Below are positions 13,935 through 31,582 of a stretch of DNA of 32,000 nt, one piece after another (position 1 is the first letter of the stretch; each line of letters starts with the position of its first letter). The notes under the pieces were generated by a model. It did not search any database. It worked only from the letters and a program-made list of their open reading frames with translations, and had not been told where the DNA came from. A program made the position numbers and the translations under genes. The DNA is from Candidatus Saccharimonadota bacterium (GTDB taxonomy: Bacteria > Patescibacteriota > Gracilibacteria > BD1-5 > UBA6164), in assembly GCA_965227835.1 (NCBI GenBank), contig OZ245768.1:450001-482000 (forward strand). Reading direction: 5' to 3'.

Positions 13935-13940
13935 CATCAA

Positions 13941-14567: not shown

Positions 14568-14576
14568 TTATGCACA
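14568..14576 (+). promoter_or_regulatory. single near-consensus DnaA box TTATGCACA upstream of dnaA
   Basis: 8/9 match to TTATCCACA. A weaker GTGTTCACA (6/9) lies just upstream. No box cluster found. Confidence 0.3.
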
Positions 14577-14719
14577 ACAAAACAAGATAAGTATTTTTAT
14601 TCTTTTGACTTACAATTAAAAATAAATAAATTGTTTATTTAGATATCAATTGACTAAAAAAGGAAAAATATAGGAGTGGTAAAATCTATTTAATTTAAAG
14701 TAACCTTAATTATCAAAAA

Positions 14720-16141
14720 ATGGAAAAACACTACATTTTAAAGAATATCTTGTTAAATATAATTGAAGATGTAAAAAAACAGGATTTTTTAGTATATTTT
14801 AGAAAAATATCATTGATTGATTACAATGACAAAAAACTTACACTTGGAGTTGTTTCAAGTTTTATGAAAGGTAACCTAGAAGCAAAATTTTGAGAAAAAA
14901 TATTAGAATCTGTACAAAAAGAAATTCCAAGTATAGAAAATGTAGAAATAGTAATAGATGAAAATATAGATAATCCCTCAAACACAAATTGTATAGATTG
15001 TAAAATATTTTTGAAAGATTTATGAAAAGATACCACCAAAACAAAACCAAAAAATAACTTTCTTTGAACAATTTTGAAAGAAAAAGAATTTGCAAACAAT
15101 AAATATACCTTATCCAATTTTATAGTTTGACCAGATAGTCAACTAGCATATTCTGCTTGCGAAGCTGTTTCAAGAACTCCAGGTAAATCATATAATCCTC
15201 TGTATATATATTGAGATGTTTGATTATGAAAGACCCATTTGTTGCAAGCAACTTGAAATAGAATTTTTTCTAAATTCAAAGATAAAAAAGTAGTCTATAC
15301 TACAGCTGATAAATTTATAAATGAATATATACTTGCTGTAAAAAACAAAAAAATAGACAGATTAAGGGCTAGATTTAAAGACATAGATGTATTAATAGTA
15401 GACGATGTTCAATTCCTAGCAAAAAAAGAACAAACTCAAAACGAGCTTTATAATATTTTCAATATATTATATGACTGAAATAAACAAATAGTAATTTCTG
15501 GAGATAGAGCTCCAAAAGAATTAGAAAACTTAGAACCTAGACTTAGAAGTAGGTTTGAATGGGGAATAACTGTTGATATTTGAAAACCAGATTATGAAAC
15601 TAGACTTGCTATACTTCAAGAAAAAGCAAGAGAAAAAGAATTTATGATCCCTCAAGAAGTAGCTGAATTTATAGCTGTGAATGTAACACAAAATGTGAGA
15701 GAACTAGAATGAATTTTAAATCAACTTATAGCTGAATATGAACTAACAAATGTATTACCCGATTTGAAAAATATAGCTGAAAAATTAAAAAAACTTAGTT
15801 TTACTACTGATATATTATGAGCTAATAAAGTAGAACCGTCAAATAGGATACAAATAAAATCTTACGAAGATATAATAAAAGCAGTTTCGGATCATTTTTG
15901 AATAGAAAAAGAATGAATACTTGGACCAAATAGAAAAAAAGAGTTTATGATACCAAGACAAGTATCTATGTATCTACTAAAAACAAAGATGAATTATACA
16001 TTTGAAAGAATATGAAATATATTTTATTGAAGAAATCATGCAGCAGTATTGTATTCTTGCAAAAAATTAGAAAAACTTGTAAAAAAAGATGAAAAACTAT
16101 TAAACGAATTAAATATAATTAGAGACACAATAGGAATTTAG
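14720..16141 (+). CDS. dnaA: chromosomal replication initiator DnaA (473 aa)
   Basis: [77 protein letters not shown], and the C-terminal DNA-binding region [42 protein letters not shown] at 16139-16141. Confidence 0.93.
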
Positions 16142-16256
16142 ATATTATGTTTTTCTAATGAAATATCTTCTAAAAAAATGAAGGCTCTCTGTAAGCTTAA
16201 TTATCTAAATAAAAAATCTAAATCCTTCTTTTTATAGTAAAATAACTTATAAATAT

Positions 16257-16411
16257 TCAACAGATGGCTTTAGCCTTTTGCTATAATGAACTAAATTAGC
16301 TTAATACCTTAAAAAAATCTAATCTTATTTAATGAAACTATAAAAAATTAAGATTATTTAGAAAAAGTAACCTTTTTATTTTTCATCAACAGAAAATTTT
16401 AGCCATTTGCT
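16257..16411 (+). repeat. two REP-like hairpin copies downstream of dnaA
   Basis: 16257-16282 tcaacagatggctttagccttttgct and 16386-16411 tcaacagaaaattttagccatttgct. Same family as 3121-3144 and 20416-20441. Confidence 0.6.
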
Positions 16412-16460
16412 ATTTTAGTAAGATATTAATTTTATACTAGCAAAGAATCAATTATCAAAG

Positions 16461-16522
16461 GTTTAAATAACAAGGGGTTAAATAACAAGAGATTAAATTA
16501 ACAAAAGTTCAAATAACAAGGG
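16461..16522 (+). repeat. four tandem 15-16-bp repeats (TTAAATAACAAGG-type) running into a terminator hairpin
   Basis: gtttaaataacaagg / ggttaaataacaaga / gattaaattaacaaaa / gttcaaataacaagg. The last copy overlaps the hairpin stem. Confidence 0.6.
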
Positions 16523-16536
16523 GTCAAGACCCCTTG
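16517..16536 (+). terminator. CAAGGGGTCAAGACCCCTTG hairpin (family copy 2)
   Basis: Identical 20-mer also at 18756-18775, both followed by TCT. Lies in the dnaA-to-DUF4012 intergenic region. Confidence 0.5.
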
Positions 16537-16578
16537 TCTTTATATCAAGATATAAATAGTATTTCAGAATAAAAAACA

Positions 16579-18678
16579 ATGAAGCTAAATGATATATATA
16601 CTTGAATGAAAAAAACTCTTAATTTGAAAAAAATTAAGAGTTTTCAGTATGTAAAAGAATTATGAAAAACACATATTGATACTATAAAATGATGACTGGA
16701 AAATCTTAATATAAAACAAAAAAAATCATTAAAAGTCTCAAAAACTAGAGGATATATAGATGATATGAAAAGCAAAAAATATGAAAAAATAAACCTCAAA
16801 CATGTAATAAAATTAAAAAATAGCTTAAAACTCAAACTATATTATTTATTGAAATCAAAACTACCTAAAGACAAAAAAGCTAGAGTTTTAGCATATTTTC
16901 TACTTTTTTTTAGCTTAGTATATTGAAATAAAATCCTTGTAGAAAACCTTTTAATAAGCTGAATAAACAATCTTTATAAAATACAATACTCATCAAATAT
17001 AGATAGTTTGGAAATAGAACTAAGCAAAGCAAAGACGAAATTTGGACTTGCTAATTTTTTATTTTTACCCTTTAATTTAATTCCTTCACAAAAAATAGAG
17101 AATGTAGATAGTTTCACAAAAATATTAAATCAAACTACAAAAATATGACTGGATACAGTTGATATTTATAAAAAAGAAAAAAGCATTATAGAAGAAAAAA
17201 GCATATATGATATATATTTTTTAAAAACATTTTCCAAGCTAAAACCTTTCTTCTGGGAAAAAGAAAAAGAAATAATAAAAATAAATGAAACCTTAGATAA
17301 GATAAATTTGCAAGAAGAAAACAAATATTATGATTATTTAGAAGATATAAAGTTATTATCAAAAAATACAGTTAATAAATTGAATTATCTAAACAATAAT
17401 TATGAAACTTTTTTAAATATAATTTGAAAAAATGAAACAAAAAAATATTTTATATTATTTCAAAACAATGATGAAATAAGACCAACAGGTTGATTTATAT
17501 GAAGTGCTGGTATAGTTGAGATATTTGCCTGAAGAATAAGAGATTTTATACAAAAAGATATATATGCTTTTGAATGGGATGTAAATAAAAACTATAATGA
17601 AAAAGTAATCCCTCCAAGCTGAATATCGCTTCTATCACAAAGATTATGACTTAGAGACTCAAATGCTTTTACAAATTTTGAAGAATCATCAAAAGCGATA
17701 AATTATTTTATGCAAAAATGATTTTATGATATAGATTGAGTTATATTTATAAATCAAAAAATTATACTTGATATATTAAAACACACCTGAGGAATTTATT
17801 TTTGAAAATATGATACTTTAATAAATTATAATAATTTTTCTGAGGTGATATCTCTTTTAGTAGAAGCAAAAGTAAGTAGAAAAGCTACACTTGACACACC
17901 TAAACAAGTACTCTTTGATTTTTGAGAATTACTAAAAAATAAAATTTTTTATAAAAGTTCAAAAAAAACTCAAATAGCAATACTAAACTCTATTCTAGAA
18001 AATATAAAATCAAGAGATATAGTATTTGTAAGTCTAGATAAGCAAGAGAATGATTTTCTAAAGAATATGAGTCTCACATGAGATTTTAAATATAGCGATT
18101 TTACAAATTTTATACATCCAGTTTTTATTTCAGTATGATGAAACAAAACTGATAGATATATAAAAAGAAAGTACTACAAAGATATTAAAATAGCTGAAAA
18201 TAAAAATGACAACTTATGTTCTATGGAGGTAAATTTGGATATAGAGATTGAAAATATTTTTGATAGTGAAGAAGAAGAGAAAATAAAAGAACTTATGAAA
18301 AGGTTTAGAATACAAGAAAACAGAGATTTAATAAATATAAGTTGAGCATGAGATAATAAAAGTTATTTAAAAGTACTTATACCTAAATATTCCAATGTGT
18401 TATGAAGCTATAAAATAGTTGAAGAAGAAAATTTTAAAAGTATAGAAAGATTGATTACTACCAAATCTTGAGAGAAAAATAGTTTTAATTTAGTTTATAA
18501 AATAGAAAATATAGACTGCTTTAATCACAATACAAAGCTTTATAAACAAGCTTGAATATATGAATATGATATAGATTTTAATTACAAAAATTGATATAAA
18601 GATGAAAATTTAAAACTTAATTGATTAAAAACAGATTTTAGTTATAGTTTTTGAAATAATAATTTTGGTTGAAATTAG
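16579..18678 (+). CDS. DUF4012 domain membrane-anchored protein (699 aa)
   Basis: One N-terminal TM segment (ARVLAYFLLFFSLVYGNKILV). Signature FILFQNNDEIRPTGGFIGSAGIVEIFAGRI typical of DUF4012. TAG at 18676-18678. 2100 nt. Confidence 0.8.
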
Positions 18679-18755
18679 AATATTATTAATTTAACTACAG
18701 GGCATTAACTCTTTGCAGAAGAGAATTTTAGCTAAATTTAAGATAACTAATCTCG

Positions 18756-18775
18756 CAAGGGGTCAAGACCCCTTG
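18756..18775 (+). terminator. CAAGGGGTCAAGACCCCTTG hairpin (family copy 3)
   Basis: 78 nt after the DUF4012 stop. A T-run (attttttag) lies about 20 nt downstream. Confidence 0.5.
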
Positions 18776-18821
18776 TCTCTGAAGTAAGATTTTTTAGATT
18801 ATATAGCAGAGAAAATTCTGT

Positions 18822-18946
18822 TTTATCTATCTTTGTTTTATTCCCCCTCCTGTTCTATACTCTCTGTTCTGTTCCCTCTCCTTTAAGGAGAGGGTTAGGG
18901 TGAGGTATTTCCAAAGAAGAGGGCTAGGGTGAGGTCTTGCGAAGAG
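18822..18946 (-). repeat. GC-rich composite element Y, left copy (inverted relative to 20306-20370)
   Basis: ttccctctcctttaaggagagggttagggtgaggtat (18871-18908) contains a CCCTCTCC/GGAGAGGG hairpin plus TTAGGGTGAGG. A second half-site gagggctagggtgaggt is at about 18919-18935. The upstream arm ttttatctatctttgttttattccccctcctgttct also matches the partner. Confidence 0.6.
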
Positions 18947-18972
18947 AATTTAGTATAAATAAACAAAAAAAA

Positions 18973-20277
18973 ATGAATATAAAAAATTTAATAGCACTTG
19001 ATAACCCCTTTAGGTTACTATATCATAAAGTAAGAGCAATAATTGCAAATATATATTATGGTTTTCCTAGTAAAAATATGAAAATAATAGGAGTAACTTG
19101 AACAAATTGAAAAACCTCTACATGTAATATCATAGCCAAATGATTAATAGAAAACTGAGAAAAAGTTTTTATGTTTTCAACCGTAAACATAATAATGTGA
19201 GATCAAGATATTACCAATGAAACCAAACTTACAAGCCCTGATGCTTTCCTGTTACAAAAATTGTTAAAACAAGCAAAAAATAAATGAATAAAAACAGCAA
19301 TAATAGAAACAGCCAGTCATGGTATAAAAATGCATAGAATATGGTGATTAAACTATGATACAGTAATTTTGACAAATATAACACAAGATCATTTAGATTT
19401 ACACAGAACTATGGAAGATTATGTAGAAACGAAACTAGAAATATTTAAAAAATTAATAAGTTATAGGAGAAAAAAATGAATAAGAAAAACATCAATAATA
19501 AATATAGACAGTGATTACTATAAACTATTTGAAGAAGAAACTTATGACTCTCAATATAAATATTGAAAAAACTACAATGCAAATGTAAAAATATCGGATA
19601 TAAAAAATACCAACTCATGATTAGAATTTAGCTTAAAAGCAGCTTGAGATACTTTCAAACTTAAAAGTAAGTTAATATGAGAATTCAATGTATACAATAT
19701 AGCAGCAGCAGTTTCTGTATTTATATCTGAATGAATAAAAAAAGAAATAATAGTAAAAACTATAAGTAAACTTAAATGAATCCCTTGAAGATTAGAAGAA
19801 GTAGAAACAAATGATAATTTTAGAGTTTTTATAGATTATGCACATACACCAGATGCACTTGATAAAGTTATAAAGACATTTAATGATATAAAATGAGATT
19901 GAAACTTGACCGTAGTTTTTGGAGCTCCTTGAGATAGAGATAAATCAAAAAGACCTATAATGGGACAAATTGTGTCTTCTTTAGCTGATAAAGTAATATT
20001 AACCCAAGATGATGATTATACAGAAGATACAATCTCTATAATAAAAGATGTTTTACTGGGAATAGAAAGAAAAGAAGGAGATAATTTTTGGGTTATACCA
20101 GGTAGGGAAGAGGCTATAAGGACTTCTCTTGTAGGTGCTAAGAAAAATGATATTATACTTATAGCAGGTAAGGGAGACGAACATTCACTTATCACAAATA
20201 ATTGACCAATAGAATGGCACGATAGGACAATAGTAGAAGAAATTTTAAAATCTATAGATGATAATAAAGTAATATAG
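18973..20277 (+). CDS. murE: UDP-N-acetylmuramoyl-L-alanyl-D-glutamate-amino acid ligase MurE (434 aa, short N-terminus)
   Basis: IIGVTGTNGKTS (residues about 38-49), IIETASHG, LTNITQDHLDLH, GEFNVYNIAAA, IPGRLEEV, FIDYAHTPDAL, VVFGAPGDRDKSKRPIMG, ADKVILTQDDDYTED, ILIAGKGDEH. In frame with ORF-track fragment 19960-20205. Confidence 0.88.
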
Positions 20278-20305
20278 TAAACTTAACTTCAACCTTCCTC
20301 GAGCA

Positions 20306-20370
20306 ATACCTCACCCTAACCCTCTCCTCTAAGGAGAGGGAAGAAAACAGAAGGGAGAGATAAAGGTATA
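20306..20370 (+). repeat. GC-rich composite element Y, right copy
   Basis: atacctcaccctaaccctctcctctaaggagagggaa is the near-exact reverse complement of 18871-18908 (35/37 identical). Continues aaaacagaagggagagataaagg. Confidence 0.6.
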
Positions 20371-20415
20371 AATTAATTAATGAGAAGCTGAAGAATTAAG
20401 ATTCTACATAATTTT

Positions 20416-20441
20416 TCAACAGATGGCTTTAGCCTTTTGCT
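20416..20441 (+). repeat. REP-like hairpin copy
   Basis: tcaacagatggctttagccttttgct, identical to 16257-16282. Confidence 0.6.
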
Positions 20442-20520
20442 ATTTTAGGAAGTTTCTATTTGCTTTTTATCTACCATCTATACAGCAAAACAATTTGTAC
20501 CTTAATTTACTTATAATAAA

Positions 20521-20575
20521 CCTCACCTCAGTATTCTTCTTAGAGGAGAGGAAGTAGAACAAGGTAGATAAAATA
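20521..20575 (+). repeat. degenerate third copy of element Y
   Basis: cctcacctcagtattcttcttagaggagaggaagtagaacaaggtagataaaat. Same order of CCTCACC, a GGAGAGG hairpin half and a GATAAAA tail. Confidence 0.4.
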
Positions 20576-20641
20576 TAACTTATTTAATTAAAGAAACCCT
20601 GAAAAATTCTTTAATACCTGATAAAATAATATAAATAAAAA

Positions 20642-22072
20642 ATGACTCTTTATCTAAAATACAGACCAAAAGATTTTGAAAGCCTTATAGGACAAGATTT
20701 TATAAAAAATACATTAAAACAAGCAGTAAAAGATAATAAAACTGTTTGAGCTTATCTTTTTTGTTGACCAAAATGAACCTGAAAAACATCCACAGCAAGA
20801 ATTTTAGCGAAATCCGTAAATTGCAAAAATTTAGTAGAGTGAAATCCTTGCAACAAATGCGAAACCTGTATTTGAATAAATACTGAAAGCTTAATTGATG
20901 TAGTTGAAATAGATGCTGCAAGTAATACTTGAGTTGATAATATAAGAGAGATAATATCAAAAGCTAATTTCAAACCCACAAGTTCTAAATATAAAATTTA
21001 TATAATAGATGAAGTACATATGCTTAGTATTTGAGCTTTTAATGCTCTTTTAAAAATACTTGAAGAACCACCAGAATTTATAAAATTCATACTAGCAACC
21101 ACAGAAACACATAAAATCCCTGATACAATTATATCAAGATGTCAAAGGTATGATTTTAAAAATATATCAAGCCAAGATCTAAAAGAAAAACTTTTACAAA
21201 TATCAAAAGAAGAAAAAGTAGATATAGAAGAACAAGCATTGGAATATATAGTAAATTCTTCAGCTTGAGCTGCAAGAAATGCTATATCTCTTTTTGAGCA
21301 ATTAATAATAGACAATAAAGTAACATATAAAAACCTAGAAGAAAATCTATGACTATCCTCAAAAAATCTATTAAAAGAATTTTTGAATAAGCTTTTAGAA
21401 AAAGACTTTACTGTAATAGATGATTATGAGATTATTTTAAATTCATGAAAAAATATAAAACTCTTTTTTAAAGATTTAATATTTTATACAAAAAATTCTA
21501 CTGTAGAGAAAATAAAACTATGAGAAAAAAATATTTCCTCCAGTATAAAAATACTTGAAATACTTGATGAAACTTATTCAAAAACTAAAAACTCTCTTGA
21601 TGAAACAACTACATTTCTAATATGAATATTAAAAATATTAGAAGAAAATTGAGATTTTGAATTACTAACTTCAATAAAAAAAGAAATACCAAAAATTGTA
21701 AAAGAAGAACAAGATAATATAGAAGAAATTTCCAAAAAACAAGATACGATTAAACAAAGCTTAAATATAGAAGATATATGAGAAATATTTTCTGATTCAA
21801 AACAACCAGAAGATAAAAATCAAGAAATTTGAGATAAGAAACCAAGTTTTGATAAAGAAAATTTTCTAAAACAACTGAAAACTAATTGAGTGAAATGATT
21901 AATAGTTTCTAGTTTAAAACAATCAGAAATAAATTTAGATTGAAATGAGTTAAAAATAAAAATAAAAACTGAATTTGTTAAAAGACAACTTGAAACTGCT
22001 GAAAATATAAAAATAATTAAAAATATACTTGAAGAAATAGGATTAGGACACATAGAAGTAAAAATAAACTAA
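20642..22072 (+). CDS. dnaX: DNA polymerase III subunit gamma/tau (476 aa)
   Basis: [61 protein letters not shown], Zn module [49 protein letters not shown] at 22070-22072. Confidence 0.9.
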
Positions 22073-22076
22073 ATAT

Positions 22077-23048
22077 ATGTATTGTTTAGTTTCTACATTC
22101 AACAAAACATTTGATGAACTTGGTCTTTTATATTTTGTGCCAAGTTTTTTAGAAGGAAAATTAAAAACATGACAAATAGTTGAAATACCTTTTTGAAATA
22201 AAATAGAAATAGCTTTAGTTTTAGAATTGTGAGATTTGGAGAAACTAAATGCTTCAAATATTCCTGAAGAAAAAATAAAATCGGTAATATCAATAAAAAA
22301 TGAAAATATATTTTTGAATTCTAATCAAATAAAACTAGTAAAATTTTTATCAAGCTATTATATAACCCCCATACACCATTGTTTATCATTATTTTTCCCA
22401 AAAAATCTTGTAACTAATATAAACAAAGACAAATTAGAAATAAATGATAAAGATGATATAGTCTACGGTTTTTTATTTGATAAAATTTTATCAGAAAAAC
22501 AAAATATTGTATTTGAAGAAATAAATAAAGATTATAAAAAAACAGATAATAATAGATTTTTATTACATTGAACAACGGGTAGTTGAAAAACTGAGATTTA
22601 CATAAAGCTTATTAAAAATCAGCTTGATTTAGGTAAACAAAGTTTGCTTTTAATACCAGAAATAGTTTTAACAAATCAACTGGAATTTAGGATAAAAGAA
22701 GTTTTTTGAAAAGATGTTTTGACTATAAACTCATCAATAACTGATTTATCAAAAACCAAAGCTTGGATTTCTATATACAATTGAGACTCTAAGATAATAA
22801 TATGAACTAGGTCAGCTCTTTTTTATCCTTATAATAATTTGGGATTAGTAATAATTGATGAAGAGCATGATTCATCATACATTTCAGATGTTTCTCCTAG
22901 ATATAATAGCATTAAAGTTGCTAGGAAAATAACAGAGTTAAATTGAAATAAGATGCTTTTAGCAAGTGGTACACCTAGTGTTATTAGTATGTATAAAGCA
23001 TTAAAAGGGGAGTATAAGCTTTTAAAATTATTTGAAAAATGGAAGTAG
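22077..23048 (+). CDS. priA: primosomal helicase PriA, N-terminal 323 aa only (truncated or split)
   Basis: [19 protein letters not shown] (Walker A), [12 protein letters not shown] (DExH), [31 protein letters not shown] then TAG at 23046-23048. The Cys-rich zinc region and the second RecA lobe are absent from this window. Confidence 0.8.
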
Positions 23049-23101: not shown

Positions 23102-23980
23102 CTAATATTGGTTTATTTCTTTCATCTTTTTTTTAAACTCATCTAAAAGTCTATTTCTTATTTCTTCTCAAAAATAATGTCATATTTCGTGAAATTTTTC
23201 TTCTAACTTTTTATCAATTTTATACCACTCAATTTCTATTTCTTTCTCAGAAACTCAAATATTTTTCATTAAATTTAATTCTTCCACTTCTTCTAGAAAA
23301 TTTTCCATGAATTTACAAAAAAATACATTTGCTAATCCATCTAATTCTTTTTTTACGCTAAAATCTCTTTTTGTTCTTCAAATTCAATACCTATTTATAA
23401 ACTCTTTTTTTTGATCATTTAATATTTTATCATCTATAATTTCATTTCCGAAATCTTGTAAATAATCTAGAAATTTATAGATATTTGTATAGTGTTTAAT
23501 ATCTTTTCAATTATATATTATTCCTCATACTATTTTTGTAGAATTTTTATCTATTTCTTTTAGTATATTTATTAAATTATTTATAGGAATTCAATTCAAA
23601 ACTAAATTTAATCATACATATTTTAGATTTGGTAATTCTTTAATAGGTGTTTTTGATATTATCATATCTCATTCAACATTTTCTAAATCTGGTAAATATT
23701 CTATTTCATTTCATCCTAAATCTAAATAGCCTCTAATTCTTTTAAAATATTTTAAATTCTTTATAAAAAGTGAGCTTGTTAAATCAAGTTGTTGTCCCCA
23801 ATAAATTCAATCTAAACTTCAATCATCATTAAATTTAGTGTATTCTTCTAATTTTTCCCAAAAAATAATACCCATTGATTCTTCAACCATTTTTTCATAA
23901 TCTTTAAACTCTTTAGGAGTTAAATTTTTTCTCAAATTTTCTTTAGGAGTATAACAATACTCTTTTTTTTCTAAACTCAT
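23102..23980 (-). CDS. LRR-family paralog A (292 aa, about 4 LRRs)
   Basis: Verified codon by codon. MSLEKKEYCYTPKENLRKNLTPKEFKDYEKMVEESMGIIFWEKLEEYTKFNDDGSLDGIYWGQQLDL...GYLDLGGNEIEYLPDLENVEGDMIISKTPIKELPNLKYVGLNLVLNGIP...KKEFINRYGIGRTKRD...GVSEKEIEIEWYKIDKKLEEKFHEIGHYFGEEIRNRLLDEFKKKMKEINQY. No TAA/TAG in frame. Confidence 0.85.
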
Positions 23981-24017
23981 TTTTTAATTATTAAAATTTA
24001 TAACTATATTTTTGGAT

Positions 24018-26405
24018 CTAATTTTGGTTTATTTCTTTCATCTCTTTTCTAAATTCATCTAGGAGTCTATTTTTTATTTCCTCTCAAAAATAATGTCATA
24101 TCTCGTGAAATTTATTATCTAGTTTCTCATCAATTTTATATCGTTCAACCTCTATTTCTTTCTCAGAAGCTCAATCATTTTTCATTAATTTAATTTTCTC
24201 TACTTCAGTAATAAAATTATCCATGAATTTATAAAAAAATATATTTGCCAATATATTTAATTCTTTTTTAGTTTTTTCATCTCTTTTTGCTCTTCAAATT
24301 CAGTACCTATTTATAAATTCTTTTTTATTATCATTTAGTATATTATCATATATGGTTTTATCTCTAAAATTTTCAAGATAGTTTAGAAAGTAATATATAT
24401 CAATATAATTTTTAAACCCCGTTCAGTCATATATAGTTTTTCATCATATTTTTATAGGTCTTTCTATTATTTCTTTCAATAAACTTTCTAAAATATTTTT
24501 TGGAATTCAGTTTAAAATTAAATCTTCTCAAACTTCTTCTAATTTTGGTAAAATTTCAATATAAGTTCAAGTTAAATCTAGATTTCCTCATACATATTTC
24601 AATTTTGGTAAATCTTTTATAAAAGATCAATTTAAATTTAAATCTCATTGTACATATTCCAACTCTGGTAGATTTCTTATTTTATGTTTTTTTGATAAAA
24701 TAGAACCTACAGTTTTTAATTTTGGTAAGCTTTCTATAAAGGTTAAAGTTAAATTTAGATTTCCTCATACATACTCCAATTTTGGTAAACTTTTTATAGA
24801 ACTTCATTCTAATCTTAAGCTAAATCAAACTTTTTCTAATTTAGGTAGACTCTTTATAGGATTCCCTACCAAATGTAGATTACTTCAAACACTTTTTAAT
24901 TCTGGTAAGCCTTTTATACATTTTCAATTTAATCATCATCAAACTTTCTTTAGTTTTGGTAAACTTTCTACTTTACTTAAATACAGACTTAAACTTCATT
25001 TAACATATTCTAGATTTGGTAAACTTGTGATAAATTCTGAATTTAGTTTTAACCTTCAAAAAATTTTTTTTAAATATTTTAAATTGCTTATAGGTTTTCA
25101 CATCAAATCTAAATCTCATTTCCAATAAATTCAATCTATAAATCATTTTTTATTAAATCTAGTAAAGTCTTCTAATTTTTCCCAAGAAATAATCCCATCA
25201 GATTCCTCAACCATTTTCTCATAATCATTAAATTCTTCAGGATTTAATTTTTGTTTTAAATTTTCTTTAGAAGAAAGTTTATTTTCATTTAAATTGTTTT
25301 TTTCAATAATTAAATTTAATTCCTTAATTTCTTTTTGAAACTCATCTAAAAATCTATTTTTTGTTTCTTCTCAAAAGTAATATTTTATTTCATGAAATTT
25401 AGTATCTAGTTTTTCATTGATTTTTTTATTTAATTCTTCTTGAGAAATTCAGTTTTCTATCATCAAACTTATACTCTCTCTGTATTTTAAAAAATTTCTT
25501 GTAAAATTAATATAAATTATAGTCACAATAGTATTTAATTCTTTTTTTATACTATCATCTCTTTTTGATTTTCAATCTCAATATCTATTTATAAATTTTT
25601 CTTTAAAAGATTCTAATAATTTATCATCTATATTTTCATCTTCAAAATTTTCTATATAACTTAAAAAATTATTTCAACTTATATAAGAGTTGAGCTCCAT
25701 TCAATCATATATTATTTTTCATCATATTTCAGGAGAATTTTTCTTTATTTCTTTTAATATATTTTTTAAACTAATTTTTGGAATTCAGCTTAAATCTAAA
25801 TCACTTCAAACATATTTTAATTTTGATAAATTTTTTATAAAGGTTCAATTTAAATTCAAAACAGCTCAAACATATTTTAAATTTGGTAAACTTTTTATAG
25901 AGCTTTTATTTAAATTTAAATGAAATCAAACATATCTTAAGTTTTGCAAGTTCTTTATATAATTTTCTCTCAAAAATAAACTTCATCAAACACTTTTTAA
26001 TTTTTGTAAATACTTTATATTTTTTCAACTTAAACCTCCTCAAACTTCTTCTAATTTTGGCAAACTTTCTACTTTGCTAAAATACAAGCTCAAGCTTCAT
26101 TTTGTATATTCTAGATTTGGTAAACTTTTAATAAACTTTGAATCTAGTTTTAATTCTCAAAAAACTTTTTTTAAATATTTTAAATTGCTTATAGGTTTTC
26201 ACATTAAATCCAAATCTCATTCCCAATAAATTCAATCTATGCTTCAATCATAATTAAATTTGCTATATTTTTCTAATTTTTCCCAAGAAATAATCCCATC
26301 AGATTCTTCAACTATTCTTTCATAATCTTCGAAATCTTCAATATTTAGCTTTTTTCTAAAATTTTCTTTAAAAGAATTATTATTTTCAATTTTATCTAAA
26401 CTCAT
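24018..26405 (-). CDS. LRR-family paralog B-C: in-frame fusion of two complete modules (795 aa, about 8 + 11 LRRs)
   Basis: Verified codon by codon over all 2388 nt. Module 1: MSLDKIENNNSFKENFRKKLNIEDFEDYERIVEESDGIISWEKLEKY...FHEIKYYFGEETKNRFLDEFQKEIKE. It joins without a stop via LNLIIEKNNLNENKLSSKENLKQKLNPEEFNDYEKMVEESDGIISWEKLEDF to module 2, which ends KFHEIGHYFGEEIKNRLLDEFRKEMKEINQN. Confidence 0.85.
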
Positions 26406-26442
26406 TTTTTAATTATTAAAACTTATAACTAGAACCTTTAAT

Positions 26443-27747
26443 CTAATTTTTATTTATTTCTTTTATTTCTTTTCTAAATTCATCTAGAAATCTATTTTTT
26501 ATCTCTTTTCAAAAATAATGTCATATTTCGTGAAATTTTTCTTCTAACTTTTTATCAATTTTATACCATTCAATTTCTATTTCTTTCTCAGAAACTCAAT
26601 TTTTTTTCATTAGAGCTATCTTTTCCCTATATTTTAAAAAGTTTTTTACAAATCGTGTATAAAATAAATTAAACATTATATTTAAAATTCTCTTTACTTT
26701 ATCATCCCTCCTTGTTCTTCAAGTTCAATATATGGTTATAAATTCTTTTTTATAACTAGATATTAATTCTTCACTCATAAGCTCATTTTCAAAATTTTCT
26801 AAATAACTTAGAATACTTTTTCAATTTAAGTAAGGTTTAAAATCTATTCAATCATACATTATTTTTCACCATACTTCTGTATTATTTTCTCTTATTTCGT
26901 TTAATATATTTACTAAATTACAACTTGGAATTAAACTCAAATATAAATTCCCTCAAATTTTTTCTAATTTTGGCAAACTTTCAATATGGTTTCAGCTTAA
27001 GTATAAGTCCTCTGAAATTTCTTCTAATTCGGGTAAACTTTTTATAGAGGTTCATCTTATATCTAAACCTCAATAAACATTTTTTAATCTAGGTATACTT
27101 TTTATAGGGGTTGAATTTAAATTTAAATCTCATAAAACTATTTCTAATTTTGGTAAATTTTTTATATATACAAAGGCTAAAAATAAATTTCATTTAACTT
27201 TTTTTAATCTAGGTATACTTTTCATAGTAGTTGAATTTAAATTTAAATAAAATCAAACTTCTTCTAATTTTGGTAAGCTTTTTATATTGGTATAACTTAA
27301 ATCTAATTCTCTTGATACATATTCTAATTTTGGTAAACTTTTTATAGCTGATCATTTAAAATATGCTTCTCATAAAACTTTTTCTAAGTTTGGTAAACGT
27401 TTTATAGGGGTTTTCTGTAAATCTAAAAAACCAAAAACATTTTTTAAATAAGATAACTTTTTTATAGATGTTTCATATAGATATAAACATCATTTAATTT
27501 CTTTTAGTTTTGATAAACTTGTTATAGGCTTATAATTTAAATTTAAATCTCATTCCCAATAAATTCAATCTAATTTTCAATTGTCACGAAATCTACTATA
27601 TTTTTTCAGTTTTTCCCACGAAATAATCCCTTCAGATTCCTGAACCATTCTTTCATAGTCTTTGAAATCTTTATGGGTTAGATTATTTTTTAGATATTCT
27701 TCATAAATTGATTTTTGCTCGTTTGTTTTTGGAACATTTTTTGTCAT
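26443..27747 (-). CDS. LRR-family paralog D (434 aa, about 11 LRRs)
   Basis: Verified codon by codon. MTKNVPKTNEQKSIYEEYLKNNLTHKDFKDYERMVQESEGIISWEKLKKY. The LRR block has an exact 60-bp DNA period across about 26941-27570 (for example LPKLEEVGFYLNLNSTTMKSIPRLKKVKGNLFLAFVYIKN). C-terminus KFHEIGHYFGKEIKNRFLDEFRKEIKEINKN. Confidence 0.85.
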
Positions 27748-27783
27748 ATCTTATATTTTATGTATTAGATATTTTTATCTTGA

Positions 27784-27811
27784 ATAATAAAATTTTTGTT
27801 TTGTTTGTCAA
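27784..27811 (-). promoter_or_regulatory. putative promoter of paralog D (TTGACA-N16-TATTAT)
   Basis: Minus strand: TTGACA is the complement of 27806-27811 and TATTAT the complement of 27784-27789. About 37 nt upstream of the ATG at 27747. The same architecture occurs upstream of paralog F. Confidence 0.4.
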
Positions 27812-27861
27812 ATATAATGTATATATTAAATTTAATTTATAGTCAAGATTTAGAGTAAAAT

Positions 27862-27887
27862 AAAAAAACAAGTTTTAACTTGTTTTT
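27862..27887 (-). terminator. intrinsic terminator after the TrmB-family gene
   Basis: aaaaacaagtt/aacttgttttt perfect inverted repeat. On the minus strand it is followed by a T7 run. Confidence 0.5.
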
Positions 27888-27948
27888 CATAATTAATTTT
27901 TTACTCGAAATTTAAATATTTTTTCTAACTTTTATTTGTAGTATTTAA

Positions 27949-28674
27949 TTAATTATTCTTCAAAAACCTAAATAATAGTTTAAACAACTTTTTCTCAAAA
28001 TTAGAAAAAATTTGGCTTTCAATTATAAAACACTCTTCGGTGTTATAGTCTATAATTGCTACCTTATTTGCATAAATTATTTTAACTATATTGTCTTCAA
28101 ATATATCAAAATCTTTTGGAACTATAACAACTTCTTTTTCTAGTTTTTCTTTTTTTATATTCCTTAAATAATCATTTGTAATAACCATTCTTTCTAATTG
28201 TTTATTATCTCTGATTTTTTTATATTTACTATATTGATTCTCTGACATATTGGTTTTTCTAGAACTATATCTATAAAATATATCTCATTTATTTAAACTA
28301 TTTGCTATATCTAAAAATACATTTTTTACTCCACTTCTTCAAGATAAATGTTTAAATATTGGTTTTTTAAAATTATTTTGATATATACTTTGCAACTCTG
28401 GAATAAATAGTTTAAAATCACTTTTTATATTTTCAAAGTATGAATTTAAAATTAAGGGGTCTTCAGCTATAAAACATTTTCTCTTTCAAATTATTACTTT
28501 TGATATGATTCAATTTTCTTCCATTGAAGGAAGTATTTTATATAGCTTTGGCCTATTAATTCATAATTTAATAGATATATCACTTATATTCTTACTAGGG
28601 TTCTTTATTAAAAATAAATATATTTTTGATTCATCTGGTGTCAATCATAGTTTTTCTAATATTTTTTCTTTCAT
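27949..28674 (-). CDS. TrmB-family winged-helix transcriptional regulator (241 aa)
   Basis: MKEKILEKLGLTPDESKIYLFLIKNPSKNISDISIKLGINRPKLYKILPSMEENGIISKVIIGKRKCFIAEDP. The ORF-track fragment 27949-28248 is its C-terminal 99 aa, and the reading frame extends upstream through TGA codons. Confidence 0.75.
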
Positions 28675-28767
28675 TTTTAAATATGTAAATAAATATTACA
28701 ACTTTATTATATTTAAGTTTTATTTTTATTAAAGTCTTTTTTAGGTTTATTTATATTTTTATATTAC

Positions 28768-28779
28768 ATATACGTATAT
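28768..28779. promoter_or_regulatory. 12-bp perfect palindrome ATATACGTATAT in the divergent TrmB/PHP promoter region
   Basis: Seen directly. It lies between the divergent starts at 28674 and 28842 and is a candidate operator only. Confidence 0.25.
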
Positions 28780-28841
28780 TTTTTTACATATTTTGTAATT
28801 AGAACTATTATCTAAATACATTATTTTTTAATTTTATTTTT

Positions 28842-29765
28842 ATGTTTGATATGCATTTCCATTCTACTATATCAGATTGACATAGTACTACTGAACAAAT
28901 TTTAGATAAAGCATCTAGCTCAGGTTTAAATTTTGCTACTTTAACAGACCATGATTTTATAAGCCCTAAAGATTTTATAAAAAAGATAAAGTCGCTTTGA
29001 ATTGATTCTAAGTATTCTGTAGAAATATCTGCTAGGAATATAGATGTAAATAAAAATCTTCATCTAACTTGTTACTCAAATGATTTTTCTAAAGACATTT
29101 ATGATATTTTAGAAAATACTCGTTCTTGAAAGCAAAATATGGTTTTTTCTCAAGTTAAAAAACTTCAAGAAAAATGATTTAAAATAGAATATAATGATTT
29201 TATAGCTTATTTTGAATCTAAATGAAAAAGAAAAGATTCACTCAATAAGATTAGAATTGCAGAATTTATATTTTTGAATGATGAAAATATAAAACTAGCC
29301 AAAACTATTTCTTGAAATAATGATATAGATGTAATTTCTTTTCTTACAGGTTTTTTAAAAATTGGATGAAGTTTTCATAGGCAATATTGAATTGAATTTC
29401 CTGAATATGAACCTAATGTAGAATTATGTTGAGAGTTGGCAAAGTTTAATAATGCTATACTATCTATAGCCCATCCTAACTTTACTTTTGCAAGAGATCA
29501 TATTTCTGGTTTCAAAGATTCTTTACCTTACTATATAGATAGATGAGTAAATGCTATAGAAATAAGCTCTAAAGCTTCAATTAAATGGATAGAAGCTATT
29601 TATGAAGCAAAAAAAAGATATTGACTTATACTAACTGCTTGAAGTGATAATCATTGAATATGAATTGACGATAATAAACATGCTGATTTTTGAAATTTAA
29701 ATCCAAATTTATCTTTTGAAGATAAGAAAAATATTTTAAAAGAATTTTTGGAGTTTAAATATTAA
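28842..29765 (+). CDS. PHP-domain metal-dependent phosphoesterase (TrpH/YciV-like), 307 aa
   Basis: MFDMHFHSTISDGHSTTEQILDKASSSGLNFATLTDHDF, SIAHPNF, and LTAGSDNHGIG are the canonical PHP His/Asp motifs. TAA at 29763-29765. Confidence 0.8.
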
Positions 29766-29831
29766 TAATTCAAAGATTTTGCTTATAATGGTTATATCTA
29801 AAAAAATATATAGAAAAATTTCTATCTATTT

Positions 29832-30569
29832 TTAATTTGTTTTTCGTATAGCTCTTTGAAGTTCATCACAAATCCTATTTTTTATTTCTTCTCAAAAATA
29901 ATACTCTATATAATCAAGTTTTTCTTCTAATTTTTTATAAACTTCTTTAGCATAATTTTTTCTTTCTTCCTCGCAGACTCAATTATTTTTCATTAGATTT
30001 ATTTTTTCTATTTCTTTTAAATAATTTTCTATGAATTTATAAAAAAATACATTTGCTAATACATCTAATTCTTTTTTTACACTAAAATCTCTTTTTGTTA
30101 TTCAAATTCAATACCTATTTATAAACTCTTTTTTATGATTATTTAATATTTTATCATCTATAATTTCATTTCCGAAATCTTGTAAGTAAATTAAAAAATT
30201 ATAGATTTTTATATAAGAATTAATATCAATTGAATTAAACAAATTCATATAAGGTTCCATATTAATTCAATTGTACATAATTTTTAATCGTATTTTTTTA
30301 TTTATTACATCTATTATATTTATTAAATATGTTCTATTTATTATATTATTTAAATTATCTATAGGTATTCAGCTTAAATCTAAATCTCAGTAAATTCAAA
30401 TTAGAAATCAATGATCATAAAAAAAAGTATGTTTTTCTAATTTCTCCCAGGAAATAATACCTTTAGATTCTTTAACTATTTTTTCATAATGGTTGAATTG
30501 TAGAGGAAGTAACTTTCTTCTTAATTTTTCTTTCGAAGAAAAATAATTTTTTATTTTATTTAAAAGCAT
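29832..30569 (-). CDS. LRR-family paralog E (245 aa, one residual LRR)
   Basis: Verified codon by codon. MLLNKIKNYFSSKEKLRRKLLPLQFNHYEKIVKESKGIISWEKLEKHTFFYDHGFLIGIYGDLDLSGIPIDNL...KKEFINRYGIGITKRD...LDYIEYYFGEEIKNRICDELQRAIRKTN. Confidence 0.8.
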
Positions 30570-30612
30570 TTATTTAACTATTAAAATTATAATTTTTAAA
30601 TTATTTCTATTT

Positions 30613-31518
30613 TTAATTTGTTTTTCATATAGCTCTTTGAAGTTCATTACAAATCCTATTTTTTATTTCTTCTCAAAAATAATACTCTATATAATCAAGT
30701 TTTTCTTCTAATTTTTTATAAACTTCTTTAGCATAATTTTTTCTTTCTTCCTCGCAGACTCAATTATTTTTCATTAGATTTATTTTTTCTATTTCTTTTA
30801 AATAATTTTCTATGAATTTAACATAAAATATATTTATAAATAAAGACAATTGTTTTTTTACTATATTTGATCTTGCCATTTTTCAAGTTCAATATATGCT
30901 TATAAGTTCTTCTTTATAAACATTTATTAATTCTTTATCTATATCTTTATCTTCAAAATCTTGTAAGTAAATTAAAAAATTATAGATTTTTATATAAGAA
31001 TTAATATTCATTGAATTATAAATACCCATATAAGGTTTCATATTGGTTCAATTGTATATAATTTTTCATCATATTTTTACTTCTTTTTTACCTATTTCAT
31101 ATAGTATATTACTTAAAGTATCTATAGTTATTCAACTTAGGTCTAAATCTTTTCAAACATATTCTAAACCTTTCAAATTTTCTATAAGAGATCAGTTTAA
31201 ATATAAACTTCATTTAATAATTTTTGATATTATTAAATCTTTTATTTTAGAATTAGTTAAATATAAATCTCATGAAATACCTTTTAAAAGAACTAAAAAT
31301 TCTATCGATACTCAGCTTAAATCTAAATTTCATTCCCAATAAATTGAAATTAAAATTCAATCTTCATGAAAAATACTATATTCTTCTAATTTTTCCCAAG
31401 TAATTACACCTTTAGATTTTTCAATTATTTCTTTATAATACTTGAATCTGCTAGTAAGTAATTTTTTTCTCAACCTCTCTTCGGAAGAAAAATAATTTTT
31501 TATTTTATTTAAAAGCAT
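30613..31518 (-). CDS. LRR-family paralog F (301 aa, about 4 LRRs)
   Basis: Verified codon by codon. MLLNKIKNYFSSEERLRKKLLTSRFKYYKEIIEKSKGVITWEKLEEYSIFHEDGILISIYWEGNLDLSGVSIEFL...GSLYLNGSLIENLKGLEYVGKDLDLSGITIDTL...LDYIEYYFGEEIKNRICNELQRAIGKTN. Confidence 0.8.
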
Positions 31519-31554: not shown

Positions 31555-31582
31555 ATAATATATTTATTTTCTTATTTGTCAA
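31555..31582 (-). promoter_or_regulatory. putative promoter of paralog F (TTGACA-N16-TATTAT)
   Basis: Minus strand: TTGACA is the complement of 31577-31582 and TATTAT the complement of 31555-31560. About 37 nt upstream of the ATG at 31518. Confidence 0.4.

What the first reader, a model, noticed from the sequence alone, without database searches (positions are those of the whole stretch)
23102..31518. Island of five paralogous genes (six modules) with conserved unknown N- and C-terminal domains around a variable 20-residue LRR array
**Shared architecture**
- A conserved N-terminal region of about 60 aa: ..L(T/N)PxEFxDYEKMVEESxGIIxWEKLExY..F...G.(L/I)DGIYW.
- A run of 20-residue LRRs with consensus LPKLExVGGxLxLxGTxIKS and an exact 60-bp DNA period.
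- A conserved C-terminal region of about 150 aa: I(G/W)GKIIYDG ... KKEFINRYGIGRTKRD ... MKNxGVSEKEIEIEWYKIDKKLEEKFHEIGHYFGEEIKNRLLDEF.

**Variation and properties**
- By my count the repeat numbers are about 4 (A), 8 + 11 (B-C), 11 (D), 1 (E) and 4 (F).
- None has an obvious signal peptide or TM helix.
- I do not recognise either terminal domain.
- The glycine that opens nearly every repeat is encoded by TGA. Under the standard code the genes therefore break about every 60 bp and disappear. The ORF track shows only antisense shadows, for example 25690-25923 and 31043-31342.

**Context and interpretation**
- The block runs against the local gene orientation and starts at the truncated priA.
- The layout (N-terminal region, short LRRs, C-terminal domain) parallels secreted LRR effectors of the IpaH/SspH type.
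- In an episymbiotic or predatory CPR bacterium, a copy-number-variable LRR family is a plausible host- or prey-recognition or effector system.
Basis: partly seen in the sequence, partly recalled or inferred. Interest (0 to 1): 0.85.

Follow-up and report, generated by a model that had tools for sequence, protein, structure and literature searches.

The report
Hidden orphan LRR gene family
A bacterium that reads the stop codon TGA as glycine carries a cluster of rapidly diversifying leucine-rich-repeat binding proteins with a previously undescribed helical tail, probably a toolkit for recognising other cells or viruses, though its function is untested.

Summary
Read with TGA = Gly (code 25), 23102-31518 holds five intact minus-strand genes with six modules. 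Each module has the same plan:
- a ~61-aa N-terminal region;
- 1, 4, 4, 8, 11 or 11 repeats of 20 residues (60 nt);
- a helix-containing end cap ending in IGGKIIYDG;
- a conserved, all-helical C-terminal domain of ~134-144 aa.

The repeats are true homologues of the bacterial 20-residue LRR class: Vibrio FlrP E 6e-15, YopM 4e-11, SspH/IpaH 1e-4 to 1e-6. The "N-terminal domain" is most likely the helical N-cap of the LRR. The C-terminal domain matches nothing in Pfam, NCBIfam, PADLOC, PDB sequences or PDB folds. It has no invariant cysteine, so it is not an IpaH-type ligase domain.

Exhaustive searches found the family in three TGA-recoded organisms. The source genome holds at least 11 genes in two subfamilies. 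Standard-code gene calling shreds the genes, so rarity is partly an artefact.

The paralogues are mosaics made by gene conversion. Variation is highest at the repeat positions I infer face the concave surface. There is no signal peptide or membrane helix.

My best reading is a lineage-specific, diversifying repertoire of LRR binding proteins acting at a host/prey or phage interface. The effector analogy remains unproven.

The parts
23102..23980 (-). Gene A (292 aa). N-cap region 23798-23980, 4 LRRs with cap 23507-23797, C-terminal helical domain 23105-23506.
   Evidence: Code-25 translation; coordinates. Identical to database protein P0004 except that TGA is read there as W.
25278..26405 (-). 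Module B of the fused B-C gene (376 aa). N region 26223-26405, 8 LRRs 25701-26222, C domain 25278-25700. It runs without a stop into module C through a 12-residue linker.
   Evidence: P0027 (795 aa) is the same protein with W for TGA.
24018..25277 (-). Module C of the fused B-C gene (419 aa). N region 25122-25277, 11 LRRs 24423-25121, C domain 24021-24422. Its first four repeats are nearly the same as those of B.
26443..27747 (-). Gene D (434 aa). N region 27556-27747, 11 LRRs 26848-27555 (the most regular 60-nt array), C domain 26446-26847.
   Evidence: AlphaFold2 model of this protein, mean pLDDT 79.5. The LRR part matches FlrP, YopM and SspH2.
29832..30569 (-). Gene E (245 aa). Minimal member: the N region joins almost directly to the cap repeat (1 LRR), followed by the C domain 29835-30266.
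   Evidence: Equals P0022 with W for TGA.
30613..31518 (-). Gene F (301 aa). N region 31336-31518, 4 LRRs 31048-31335, C domain 30616-31047. The last ~140 nt of the C domain are 100% identical to E.
27784..27811 (-). Promoter-like site TTGACA-16-TATTAT, 37 nt upstream of the start of D. Candidate promoter of a D, B-C, A unit (intergenic gaps about 35 nt).
   Evidence: It matches 11 of 12 consensus positions, but the total number of promoter-like sites in the region is not above the shuffled controls, so this is only suggestive.
31555..31582 (-). Promoter-like site TTGACA-16-TATTAT, 37 nt upstream of the start of F. Candidate promoter of an F, E unit.
   Evidence: with the same caveat.
27949..28674 (-). 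TrmB-type winged-helix regulator gene that splits the island. Not shown to belong to the family's function.
   Evidence: Pfam TrmB, E 1.5e-12. No such neighbour next to the homologue in L001.
28842..29765 (+). PHP-domain phosphoesterase gene, the only plus-strand gene inside the island. Not shown to belong.
   Evidence: Pfam PHP, E 2.8e-8.

Best explanation
**What it is.** These genes form a multigene family specific to TGA=Gly (code 25) bacteria. The products are soluble LRR binding proteins without a Sec signal.

**Anatomy of one module**
- A three-helix plus beta-hairpin N-cap. This is the 'N-terminal domain'.
- 1-12 repeats of the 20-residue YopM/IpaH/FlrP class, consensus L-x-L-x-G-T-x-I-x-S-L-P-x-L-x-x-V-G-G-x.
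- An end cap that contains a helix and finishes with IGGKIIYDG.
- A constant, undescribed all-alpha domain of ~135 aa.

**How I think it works**
- The most variable repeat positions, and the varying number of repeats, give each paralogue its own ligand surface. By analogy with solved LRRs I place those positions on the concave face.
- The constant helical tail couples every variant to the same partner. That partner could be another family member (self- or hetero-association) or a shared docking or export component.
- The repertoire is renewed by tandem duplication, gain and loss of 60-nt units, gene conversion between paralogues, occasional fusion of neighbouring modules, and decay of some copies.

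**Role I commit to.** The family is a repertoire of non-enzymatic binders aimed at proteins of the host or prey cell. They would be delivered or released by a route that does not use a Sec signal.

**Shown versus inferred**
- Shown: the code, the architecture, LRR homology, orphan status of the tail, family size, mosaicism, the pattern of variation, and the absence of signal peptide and membrane helix.
- Inferred: ligand binding by the concave face, the tail as a common handle, export, and the host/prey target.
For: **Code 25 and intact genes:**

**LRR homology**
- By sequence: FlrP 6.1e-15, YopM 4.2e-11, SspH2 1.7e-6, IpaH/SspH1 about 1e-5. All matches are confined to residues ~97-266 of D.
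- NCBIfam SspH2 model, LRR segment only, E 1e-7.
- Foldseek hits FlrP, SspH1, IpaH and YopM with probability up to 1.0, and phage LRR proteins at E 4e-5.

**Structure model of D**
- Mean pLDDT 79.5.
- Helices 9-22, 25-37 and 44-49 and a hairpin (pLDDT 84-95) lead into 11 one-strand repeats.
- A cap helix at 275-287 and a last strand at 296-299 follow, then helices 301-433.

**Variation.** Entropy is highest at repeat positions 4, 20, 2, 7 and 5, which flank the beta strand. It is lowest at the L/I/V core.

**Family size**
- 6 modules in the window.
- P0002 (two modules), P0005, P0023, P0024, P0025 and P0026 lie elsewhere on the same 1,489,121-bp contig.
- One copy lies on an ENA contig (P0003/L001).
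- One copy lies on a JGI contig (P0028/L022).

**Mosaicism**
- E/F are 100% identical over the last three 45-nt windows of the C domain but 60-78% in the middle.
- A/E are 93-96% in the middle; A/D reach 98% in one window.
- P0002b and P0023 share their last 136 residues exactly, against 72% identity at the N-terminus.

**Constraint.** dN/dS is 0.26-0.87 for the N and C regions. The one exception is the E-F C-domain pair at 1.43, with a very low dS of 0.11.

**Localisation signals.** No membrane helix or signal-like N-terminus. A neighbouring 977-aa protein in L001 does start with a hydrophobic, signal-like segment.

**Precedent.** Tongue-associated Saccharibacteria carry 12-24 LRR proteins per genome, proposed to mediate adherence (PMC7739484).
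Against: - Nothing here shows expression, export or a ligand.
- No secretion system is visible in the window, and I could not read the rest of the genome.
- With no signal peptide, the default reading is a cytoplasmic protein.
- The closest solved relative (FlrP) is a structural spacer, not an effector.
- The tail has no enzyme-like invariant residues. The invariant columns are mostly Y, F, K, L, I, G, N, R and E.
- No gene is a conserved neighbour across the three loci.
- Both structure models had to be made from versions of the proteins with Trp in place of the TGA glycines, and from only 10-11 sequences. Details of the tail fold are therefore uncertain.
Confidence: 0.35

Rival explanations
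1. Intracellular sensors or immune receptors. The variable LRR recognises phage or other invader proteins inside the cell. The constant helical tail oligomerises or signals, in the manner of the LRR sensor part of NLR-like proteins.
For: - No signal peptide or membrane helix.
- The pattern of variation fits a recognition surface.
- Birth-and-death evolution and gene conversion.
- Two independent fusions of neighbouring modules (B-C, P0002) hint that modules act together.
- The same LRR class is common in phage and mobile-element proteins.
Against: - No match to any PADLOC model.
- No NTPase, nuclease, TIR or other effector domain in the proteins or their neighbours.
- From general knowledge, bacterial defence sensors are usually present in one or a few copies, not a dozen.
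Confidence: 0.2
2. Housekeeping adaptors or spacers for one of the cell's own machines, such as pili, the division apparatus or the envelope, as FlrP is for the Vibrio flagellar rod.
For: FlrP is the best solved match (E 6.1e-15). It is a purely structural LRR (bioRxiv 10.64898/2025.12.04.692373).
Against: - FlrP has a Sec signal and is a single gene. This family lacks a signal.
- The family is expanded, mosaic and fast-evolving.
- Searches found it in only three organisms.
Confidence: 0.12
3. Surface adhesins, like internalins or the LRR proteins proposed for Saccharibacteria clade T1, displayed on the cell to bind the host.
For: The CPR precedent (PMC7739484) and the variable LRR number.
Against: No signal peptide, membrane anchor, or wall-binding or sorting motif. 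The tail is soluble and rich in charged residues.
Confidence: 0.08
4. IpaH/SspH-type effectors in the strict sense: an LRR that recruits a substrate to a C-terminal ubiquitin-ligase (NEL) or comparable catalytic domain.
For: The LRR resembles SspH2, SspH1 and IpaH, and the overall order is the same: cap, LRR, all-alpha C-terminus.
Against: - No NEL hit in Pfam at E <= 10 in any of 10 C domains.
- No invariant Cys.
- SspH2 model score 30 bits against a cut-off of 1243.
- Foldseek with the tail alone finds only generic helical bundles, E >= 0.2.
- From general knowledge, bacterial prey has no ubiquitin system.
Confidence: 0.03
5. Decaying or selfish repeat DNA without a cellular function.
For: Truncated copies exist: P0024 lacks the N region and P0026 is a tail only. 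E has lost its repeats. dN/dS is only moderately below 1.
Against: - Five long frames free of TAA/TAG in 77% A+T DNA.
- dN/dS is below 1 in 29 of 30 comparisons.
- Invariant core residues are kept across three organisms.
Confidence: 0.05

Closest known systems
FlrP, the LRR protein bound to the rod of the Vibrio polar flagellar motor (PDB 8z5u chain 0)
   Same: Best sequence match of the repeat region (E 6.1e-15, residues 97-266 of D) and top Foldseek hit. Same 20-residue unit with the V-G-G-x-L-x-L-x-x-T-x-I-K-x-L-P signature.
   Different: FlrP is 199 aa with a Sec signal, a short head and tail, is a single-copy structural spacer, and has no helical C-terminal domain.
YopM and the LRR domains of the IpaH/SspH/SlrP type III effectors
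   Same: 20-residue bacterial LRR class. Significant sequence matches: YopM 4.2e-11, SspH2 1.7e-6, IpaH/SspH1 about 1e-5. Helical N-cap followed by the LRR, then an all-alpha C-terminal part in IpaH/SspH.
   Different: No NEL domain, no catalytic Cys, and a tail of ~135 aa against about 300 (from memory). From general knowledge, type III secretion is not known in these bacteria. The repeat consensus carries V-G-G and T in place of the usual N.
LRR proteins of the same repeat signature fused to other domains (PcfJ-like proteins P0007, P0012, P0014; P0006-P0011; phage LRR proteins such as A0A6J7X691)
   Same: 39-49% identity over the repeat array. Same C-terminal cap motif V-G-G-x-I-Y-x-D.
   Different: Their partner domains are unrelated (PcfJ, others unknown). 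None has the N region or the helical tail found here.
Expanded LRR proteins (COG4886) of Saccharibacteria clade T1
   Same: Expansion of LRR proteins (12-24 per genome) in a reduced-genome CPR episymbiont, proposed to serve host adherence (PMC7739484).
   Different: Different phylum and standard genetic code. I made no sequence comparison, and those proteins were discussed as membrane-associated adhesins.
Internalins of Listeria
   Same: Helical N-cap, an LRR of variable length between paralogues, and a multigene family used for host recognition (established knowledge).
   Different: 22-residue repeats, a Sec signal, an Ig-like inter-repeat region and wall anchors. None of these is present here.

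Membership tests
Leucine-rich repeat superfamily, bacterial 20-residue class (YopM/IpaH/FlrP) | Tandem units of about 20 residues with a hydrophobic L-x-L-x-x-(N/T)-x-(I/L) core | tested here: met
   Period 60 nt. Layouts and per-position counts over 65 repeats.
Leucine-rich repeat superfamily, bacterial 20-residue class (YopM/IpaH/FlrP) | Significant sequence similarity to solved members | tested here: met
   FlrP 6.1e-15, YopM 4.2e-11, SspH2 1.7e-6. Pfam LRR_4 reaches only 22 bits, below its cut-off of 27. Recep_L_domain, an LRR-like solenoid, reaches 28 bits, above its cut-off.
Leucine-rich repeat superfamily, bacterial 20-residue class (YopM/IpaH/FlrP) | Solenoid fold with one short beta strand per repeat | tested here: met
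   AlphaFold2 model of D has strands every 20 residues from 87 to 271, with pLDDT mostly 64-96. The model was made from the version with Trp in place of the TGA glycines.
IpaH/SspH/SlrP NEL ubiquitin ligases | C-terminal NEL domain | tested here: not met
   No NEL hit in Pfam for the full proteins or for 10 C domains at E <= 10. PDB profile search finds nothing. Foldseek with the tail gives best E 0.2, generic bundles only.
IpaH/SspH/SlrP NEL ubiquitin ligases | Invariant catalytic cysteine | tested here: not met
   No invariant or near-invariant Cys among the conserved columns of the C domain.
IpaH/SspH/SlrP NEL ubiquitin ligases | Full-length match to the curated family model | tested here: not met
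   NF011917 (SspH2) scores 30.4 bits against a cut-off of 1243, over the LRR segment only.
IpaH/SspH/SlrP NEL ubiquitin ligases | Type III secretion system in the same genome | not testable with these tools
   Only 32 kb of the genome was available. The source contig was not in the genome collection that I scanned.
Internalins | Sec signal peptide and surface anchoring | tested here: not met
   Mean hydropathy of the first 30 residues is -0.9 to -1.7. No 19-residue window exceeds 1.35.
Internalins | 22-residue repeats followed by an Ig-like inter-repeat region | tested here: not met
   The period is 20 residues. The region after the repeats is all-helical.
Known anti-phage defence systems (PADLOC-DB 2.0) | Match to a defence-system protein model | tested here: not met
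   No family at E <= 1 for four representative members.
Code-25 bacteria (Gracilibacteria/Absconditabacteria) | TGA read as glycine | tested here: met
   Universally conserved P-loop glycines are TGA in seven housekeeping genes. The two outside homologues also need TGA = Gly. I could not determine which of the two phyla the source belongs to.

The most novel reading that the evidence does not exclude
The family is the cargo repertoire of an undescribed, Sec-independent delivery route used by predatory or episymbiotic code-25 bacteria. The constant all-alpha tail would be a new translocation or effector domain. The LRR would be a cassette-like, recombining specificity module, loosely comparable to variable lymphocyte receptors, that determines which host or prey proteins are seized.
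Probability: 0.12. Interest if true: 0.8.

Novelty: new variant of a known kind. Interest (0 to 1): 0.45.

Why it matters
- **Candidate host-interaction genes.** Cultured or observed members of the TGA = Gly lineages are predators or episymbionts (Vampirococcus lugosii, PMC8080830), and the molecules they use to recognise partners are unknown. A family taking roughly 1% of the genes of a 1.49-Mb genome gives a concrete candidate set to test. It has a variable recognition surface and a constant new domain.
- **A blind spot in the catalogues.** Standard-code gene calling cuts these genes about every 57 nt. The third homologue survives in the catalogue only as a 41-residue fragment. Families like this are therefore systematically missing or mistranslated in protein catalogues. 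The source genome's copies are stored with Trp in place of Gly.
- **A caution.** LRR proteins and their expansions are well known, and no function has been shown here.

Tried and rejected
**Restricted tools**
I had to use database versions with Trp at TGA positions, which weakens both models and remote-homology detection.

**Collection scans**
- A DNA motif for Y-F-(TGA)-E-E-I-K-N-R in 185,579 representative genomes returned 20 hits, none in a CPR genome carrying the family and not even the source genome.
- A longer motif in JGI metagenomes returned nothing.
- N-region patterns in metagenomes and in viral contigs returned no confirmed locus. These patterns were too strict to catch L022 (WEKLKKYT), so the negatives are weak.

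**Look-ups and other searches**
- Look-ups of P0001, P0002 and P0005 on contigs failed, and cluster look-up gave no names or accessions. The second subfamily's locus and the organism's name stay unknown.
- A literature search for the genome size was fruitless.
- phrog_6937 hit residues 21-119 of E at E 1e-4, but tblastn of that region against 50,697 phage records found nothing. I dropped it.

**Ideas considered and rejected**
- Syntaxin Habc-like and SNARE-like bundles top the Foldseek list for the tail. At E >= 0.2 and TM about 0.4 this is what any long helical bundle gives, so I reject it as evidence.
- The closed 1.34-Mb BD1-5 genome with a hypervariable PTD-repeat gene (bioRxiv 10.1101/595074) is a different genome and a different repeat.
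- I looked for tRNA genes and found none in the window. The protein-family scans turned up no integrase, and nothing found marks the block as a mobile island. Its G+C (17-23%) is only slightly below the rest of the window.

Full report
**1.

The window is 23% G+C. Under the standard bacterial code it has almost no long ORFs: 4.0 kb in ORFs of at least 100 aa. With TGA read as sense the figure is 33.9 kb. TGA means glycine, not tryptophan. The invariant P-loop glycines of RecQ, YchF, DnaA, DnaX, PriA, MurE and adenylate kinase are written TGA. From established knowledge, this is genetic code 25, known from Gracilibacteria and Absconditabacteria.

Translated this way, 23102-31518 carries five minus-strand genes with six modules:
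- A 23102-23980
- fused B-C 24018-26405
- D 26443-27747
- E 29832-30569
- F 30613-31518

From the base composition, I calculate that a 797-codon frame free of TAA/TAG has a chance probability of about 6e-27. Under table 11 the same 8.6 kb shows only four ORFs of 60 aa or more.

The shared N-terminal region, the 60-nt period, the repeat counts (4, 8, 11, 11, 1, 4) and the shared C-terminal region are all reproduced. Two small corrections apply:
- The period is not perfectly exact, because the fourth repeat of B and of C has 19 residues.
- TGA at the repeat glycine is not a peculiarity of this family. TGA supplies 80% of its Gly codons and 78% of those of the other genes.

**2. Anatomy**

I laid out 65 repeats from 13 of the 15 modules examined. 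The automated parser lost register in A and P0024 and stopped after three repeats in B and C. The consensus is L-x-L-x-G-T-x-I-x-S-L-(P/G)-x-L-x-x-V-G-G-x.
- Core positions 1, 3, 8, 11, 14 and 17 are nearly fixed.
- Entropy is highest at positions 4, 20, 2, 7 and 5. By analogy with solved LRRs, these are the residues that flank the beta strand and line the concave face.
- The array ends in a special repeat with an inserted helix (L-x-L-x-G-I-P-x-x-x-L-x-x-I-L-K-E-I) and a last strand I-G-G-K-I-I-Y-D-G.
- The motif V-G-G-x-I-Y-x-D also closes the arrays of unrelated proteins of the same LRR class (P0007, P0009, P0011). The LRR domain therefore ends there.

An AlphaFold2 model of D has mean pLDDT 79.5. 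It shows:
- three short helices (9-22, 25-37, 44-49) and a hairpin, pLDDT 84-95, running into the first repeat;
- one strand every 20 residues;
- the cap helix 275-287 and the last strand 296-299;
- helices from 301 to 433 (pLDDT 63-84).

I infer that the 'N-terminal domain' is the helical N-cap of the LRR, as in YopM, IpaH and internalins, rather than a separate functional domain.

The tail modelled alone is all-alpha with six helices (pLDDT 73, pTM 0.63). None of the proteins has a membrane helix or a signal-like N-terminus.

**3. What the parts resemble**

The repeat region is a real homologue of the bacterial 20-residue LRR class. A phmmer search of D against PDB sequences gives:
- FlrP of the Vibrio flagellar motor, E 6.1e-15
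- YopM, 4.2e-11
- SspH2, 1.7e-6
- about a dozen IpaH and SspH1 LRR domains, 1e-5 to 1e-4

Every match is confined to residues ~97-266. Other evidence agrees:
- The NCBIfam SspH2 model matches the same stretch, at 30 bits against a cut-off of 1243.
- Foldseek returns the same set.
- Among viral models it returns phage LRR proteins at E 4e-5.
- Database proteins with 39-49% identity over the array carry quite different partner domains, several of them PcfJ-like.

FlrP is a Sec-exported structural spacer on the flagellar rod (bioRxiv 10.64898/2025.12.04.692373). This LRR class is therefore a general protein-binding module, and resembling IpaH does not imply an effector.

The tail is an orphan:
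- No Pfam, NCBIfam or PADLOC family matches at E <= 1. A weak PHROG hit at E 1e-4 is treated in section 7.
- No Pfam family recurs across 10 tails at E <= 10.
- A profile search of PDB sequences finds nothing better than E 0.58.
- Foldseek finds only generic helical bundles, best E 0.2.
- Its invariant residues are aromatic, aliphatic, Lys/Arg, Gly, Asn and Glu. There is no invariant Cys, His, Ser or Asp.

It is not a NEL ligase domain.

**4. Distribution**

Four database proteins are identical to D, A, E and B-C except that TGA is rendered as Trp: P0001, P0004, P0022 and P0027. They sit on one 1,489,121-bp contig held by NCBI and ENA, without names or Pfam hits.

The same contig encodes a second subfamily with the repeat L-G-N-L-x-E-V-G-G-x-L-x-L-x-G-T-P-I-T-S:
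- P0002, again two fused modules
- P0005, P0023 and P0025
- P0024, which lacks the N region
- P0026, a tail only

That makes at least 11 genes.

An exhaustive HMMER search of 1.84 billion cluster representatives with the tail profile found six proteins. Five are from this contig. The sixth is P0003, from a 32.9-kb ENA contig that is also TGA-recoded (25% G+C), where it is single-copy beside clpB.

The N-region profile found one more hit, a 41-residue 'protein' on a 924-bp JGI contig (32% G+C). Read with TGA = Gly, that contig encodes the N region, repeats and a cap, followed directly by a second repeat array instead of the helical tail.

The family therefore exists in at least three code-25 organisms. 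Standard gene calling hides it, so its apparent rarity is partly an artefact. My DNA-pattern scans of genomes, metagenomes and viral contigs were negative but narrow.

**5. How the family evolves**

The paralogues are mosaics:
- In 45-nt windows of the tail, E and F are 100% identical over the last three windows but 60-78% in the middle.
- A and E are 93-96% identical in the middle.
- A and D reach 98% in one window.

Further points:
- In subfamily 2, P0002b and P0023 share their last 136 residues exactly, while their N-termini are 72% identical.
- B and C share almost identical first four repeats and then differ in number.
- Duplicated segments run into the intergenic DNA.
- Units within an array are only 61-76% alike, so arrays are not recent slippage products.
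- dN/dS for the N region and tail is 0.26-0.87. The exception is the E-F tail pair, where dS is only 0.11. This indicates constraint, but relaxed.

Together with the truncated copies and two independent module fusions, this is birth-and-death evolution with gene conversion.

The two best promoter-like sites on the minus strand match 11 of 12 consensus positions. They lie 37 nt upstream of F and of D, and the gaps within each group are about 35-45 nt. This suggests two transcription units, F-E and D-BC-A. The overall count of such sites is not above shuffled controls, however.

**6. Interpretation**

Shown:
- a lineage-restricted, expanded, recombining family of capped LRR proteins;
- a constant new helical tail;
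- no export signal.

Inferred:
- The concave face binds ligands that differ between paralogues.
- The tail gives all variants one common partner, possibly each other. The recurrent fusion of neighbours is a weak hint of this.

I commit to a host/prey-directed binding repertoire delivered without a Sec signal, at confidence 0.35. My reasons:
- Repeat-protein expansions in reduced-genome symbionts are typically host-directed. The Saccharibacteria clade T1 precedent is in PMC7739484.
- Known code-25 bacteria are predators or episymbionts (PMC8080830).

Rivals:
- Intracellular sensors: 0.2. No PADLOC hit, no effector domain.
- Housekeeping spacers like FlrP: 0.12. This does not fit the expansion and mosaicism.
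- Surface adhesins: 0.08. No signal or anchor.
- True IpaH-type ligases: 0.03. Defining features were tested and not met.
- Non-functional DNA: 0.05. The frames are intact and constrained.

**7. What led nowhere**

- The organism's name and the second subfamily's locus could not be obtained.
- The weak phrog_6937 hit was not backed by tblastn against phage genomes.
- The syntaxin-like hits for the tail are not significant.
- Nothing marks the block as a mobile element. I found no tRNA and no integrase among the protein-family hits, and G+C is only slightly lower than in the rest of the window.

**8. Verdict**

The finding is real and was correctly described. The LRR part is a new member of a known class. 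The architecture, with its orphan helical tail and its restriction to TGA = Gly bacteria, makes it a new variant of a known kind.

Interest is moderate at 0.45. It is a good candidate set for host-recognition studies in uncultivated predators, and a clear example of a family hidden by recoding.

Noticed in passing
window 22068-23048 (+): The priA ORF stops after 326 codons. It contains only the 3' DNA-binding domain and helicase lobe 1. There is no second helicase lobe, Cys-rich region or C-terminal domain, and gene A's stop codon follows 54 nt later on the other strand. It is either a truncated pseudogene or a split priA.
   Followed up: partly
window 9348-9708 (-): Bacterial RNase P RNA class A, full length, 116 bits (gathering score 100). 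It lies in one of the few long non-coding gaps.
   Followed up: no
window 11450-12919 (-) and 13014-13934 (+): A MATCAP-like metallopeptidase (PF08014, E 5e-12) lies divergently next to a RimK/TTL-like ATP-grasp ligase (PF08443, E 1e-23). This pairing looks like an enzyme that adds C-terminal amino acids and one that removes them.
   Followed up: no
window 13014-23048 versus 23102-31518: dnaA is at 14699-16141. All genes from 13014 to 23048 are on the plus strand, and the cumulative GC skew has its minimum near 12-13 kb, so a replication origin is probably close. The LRR block on the minus strand would then be transcribed head-on to replication.
   Followed up: no
window 27949-28674 (-) and 28842-29765 (+): A TrmB-type regulator and a PHP phosphoesterase split the LRR block into two groups. 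Neither is found next to the homologue in L001, so no functional link is shown.
   Followed up: partly
L022 (JGI 3300048635, 924 bp), frame +2: The third organism's homologue has the N region, repeats and a cap, then goes straight into a second repeat array without the helical tail. The N-cap/LRR unit and the tail can therefore occur separately. The public gene calls on this contig are five fragments of 27-58 aa.
   Followed up: partly
L001 467-3400 (-) and 3522-6434 (-): Two proteins of about 970 aa with no Pfam hit lie near the single-copy homologue P0003. One begins with a hydrophobic signal-like segment and is rich in Gly, Ser, Thr and Asn, which suggests a large surface protein.
   Followed up: no
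window 16573-18678 (+): A 699-aa protein with a DUF4012 domain (E 1.6e-16) and an N-terminal hydrophobic stretch sits between dnaA and murE. Function unknown.
   Followed up: no
database proteins P0001, P0004, P0022, P0027: The public protein collection stores this genome's proteins translated with TGA = Trp (code 4 style) instead of Gly. Every family member there carries up to about 25 wrong tryptophans per module, which will distort any homology or structure work based on those entries.
   Followed up: yes
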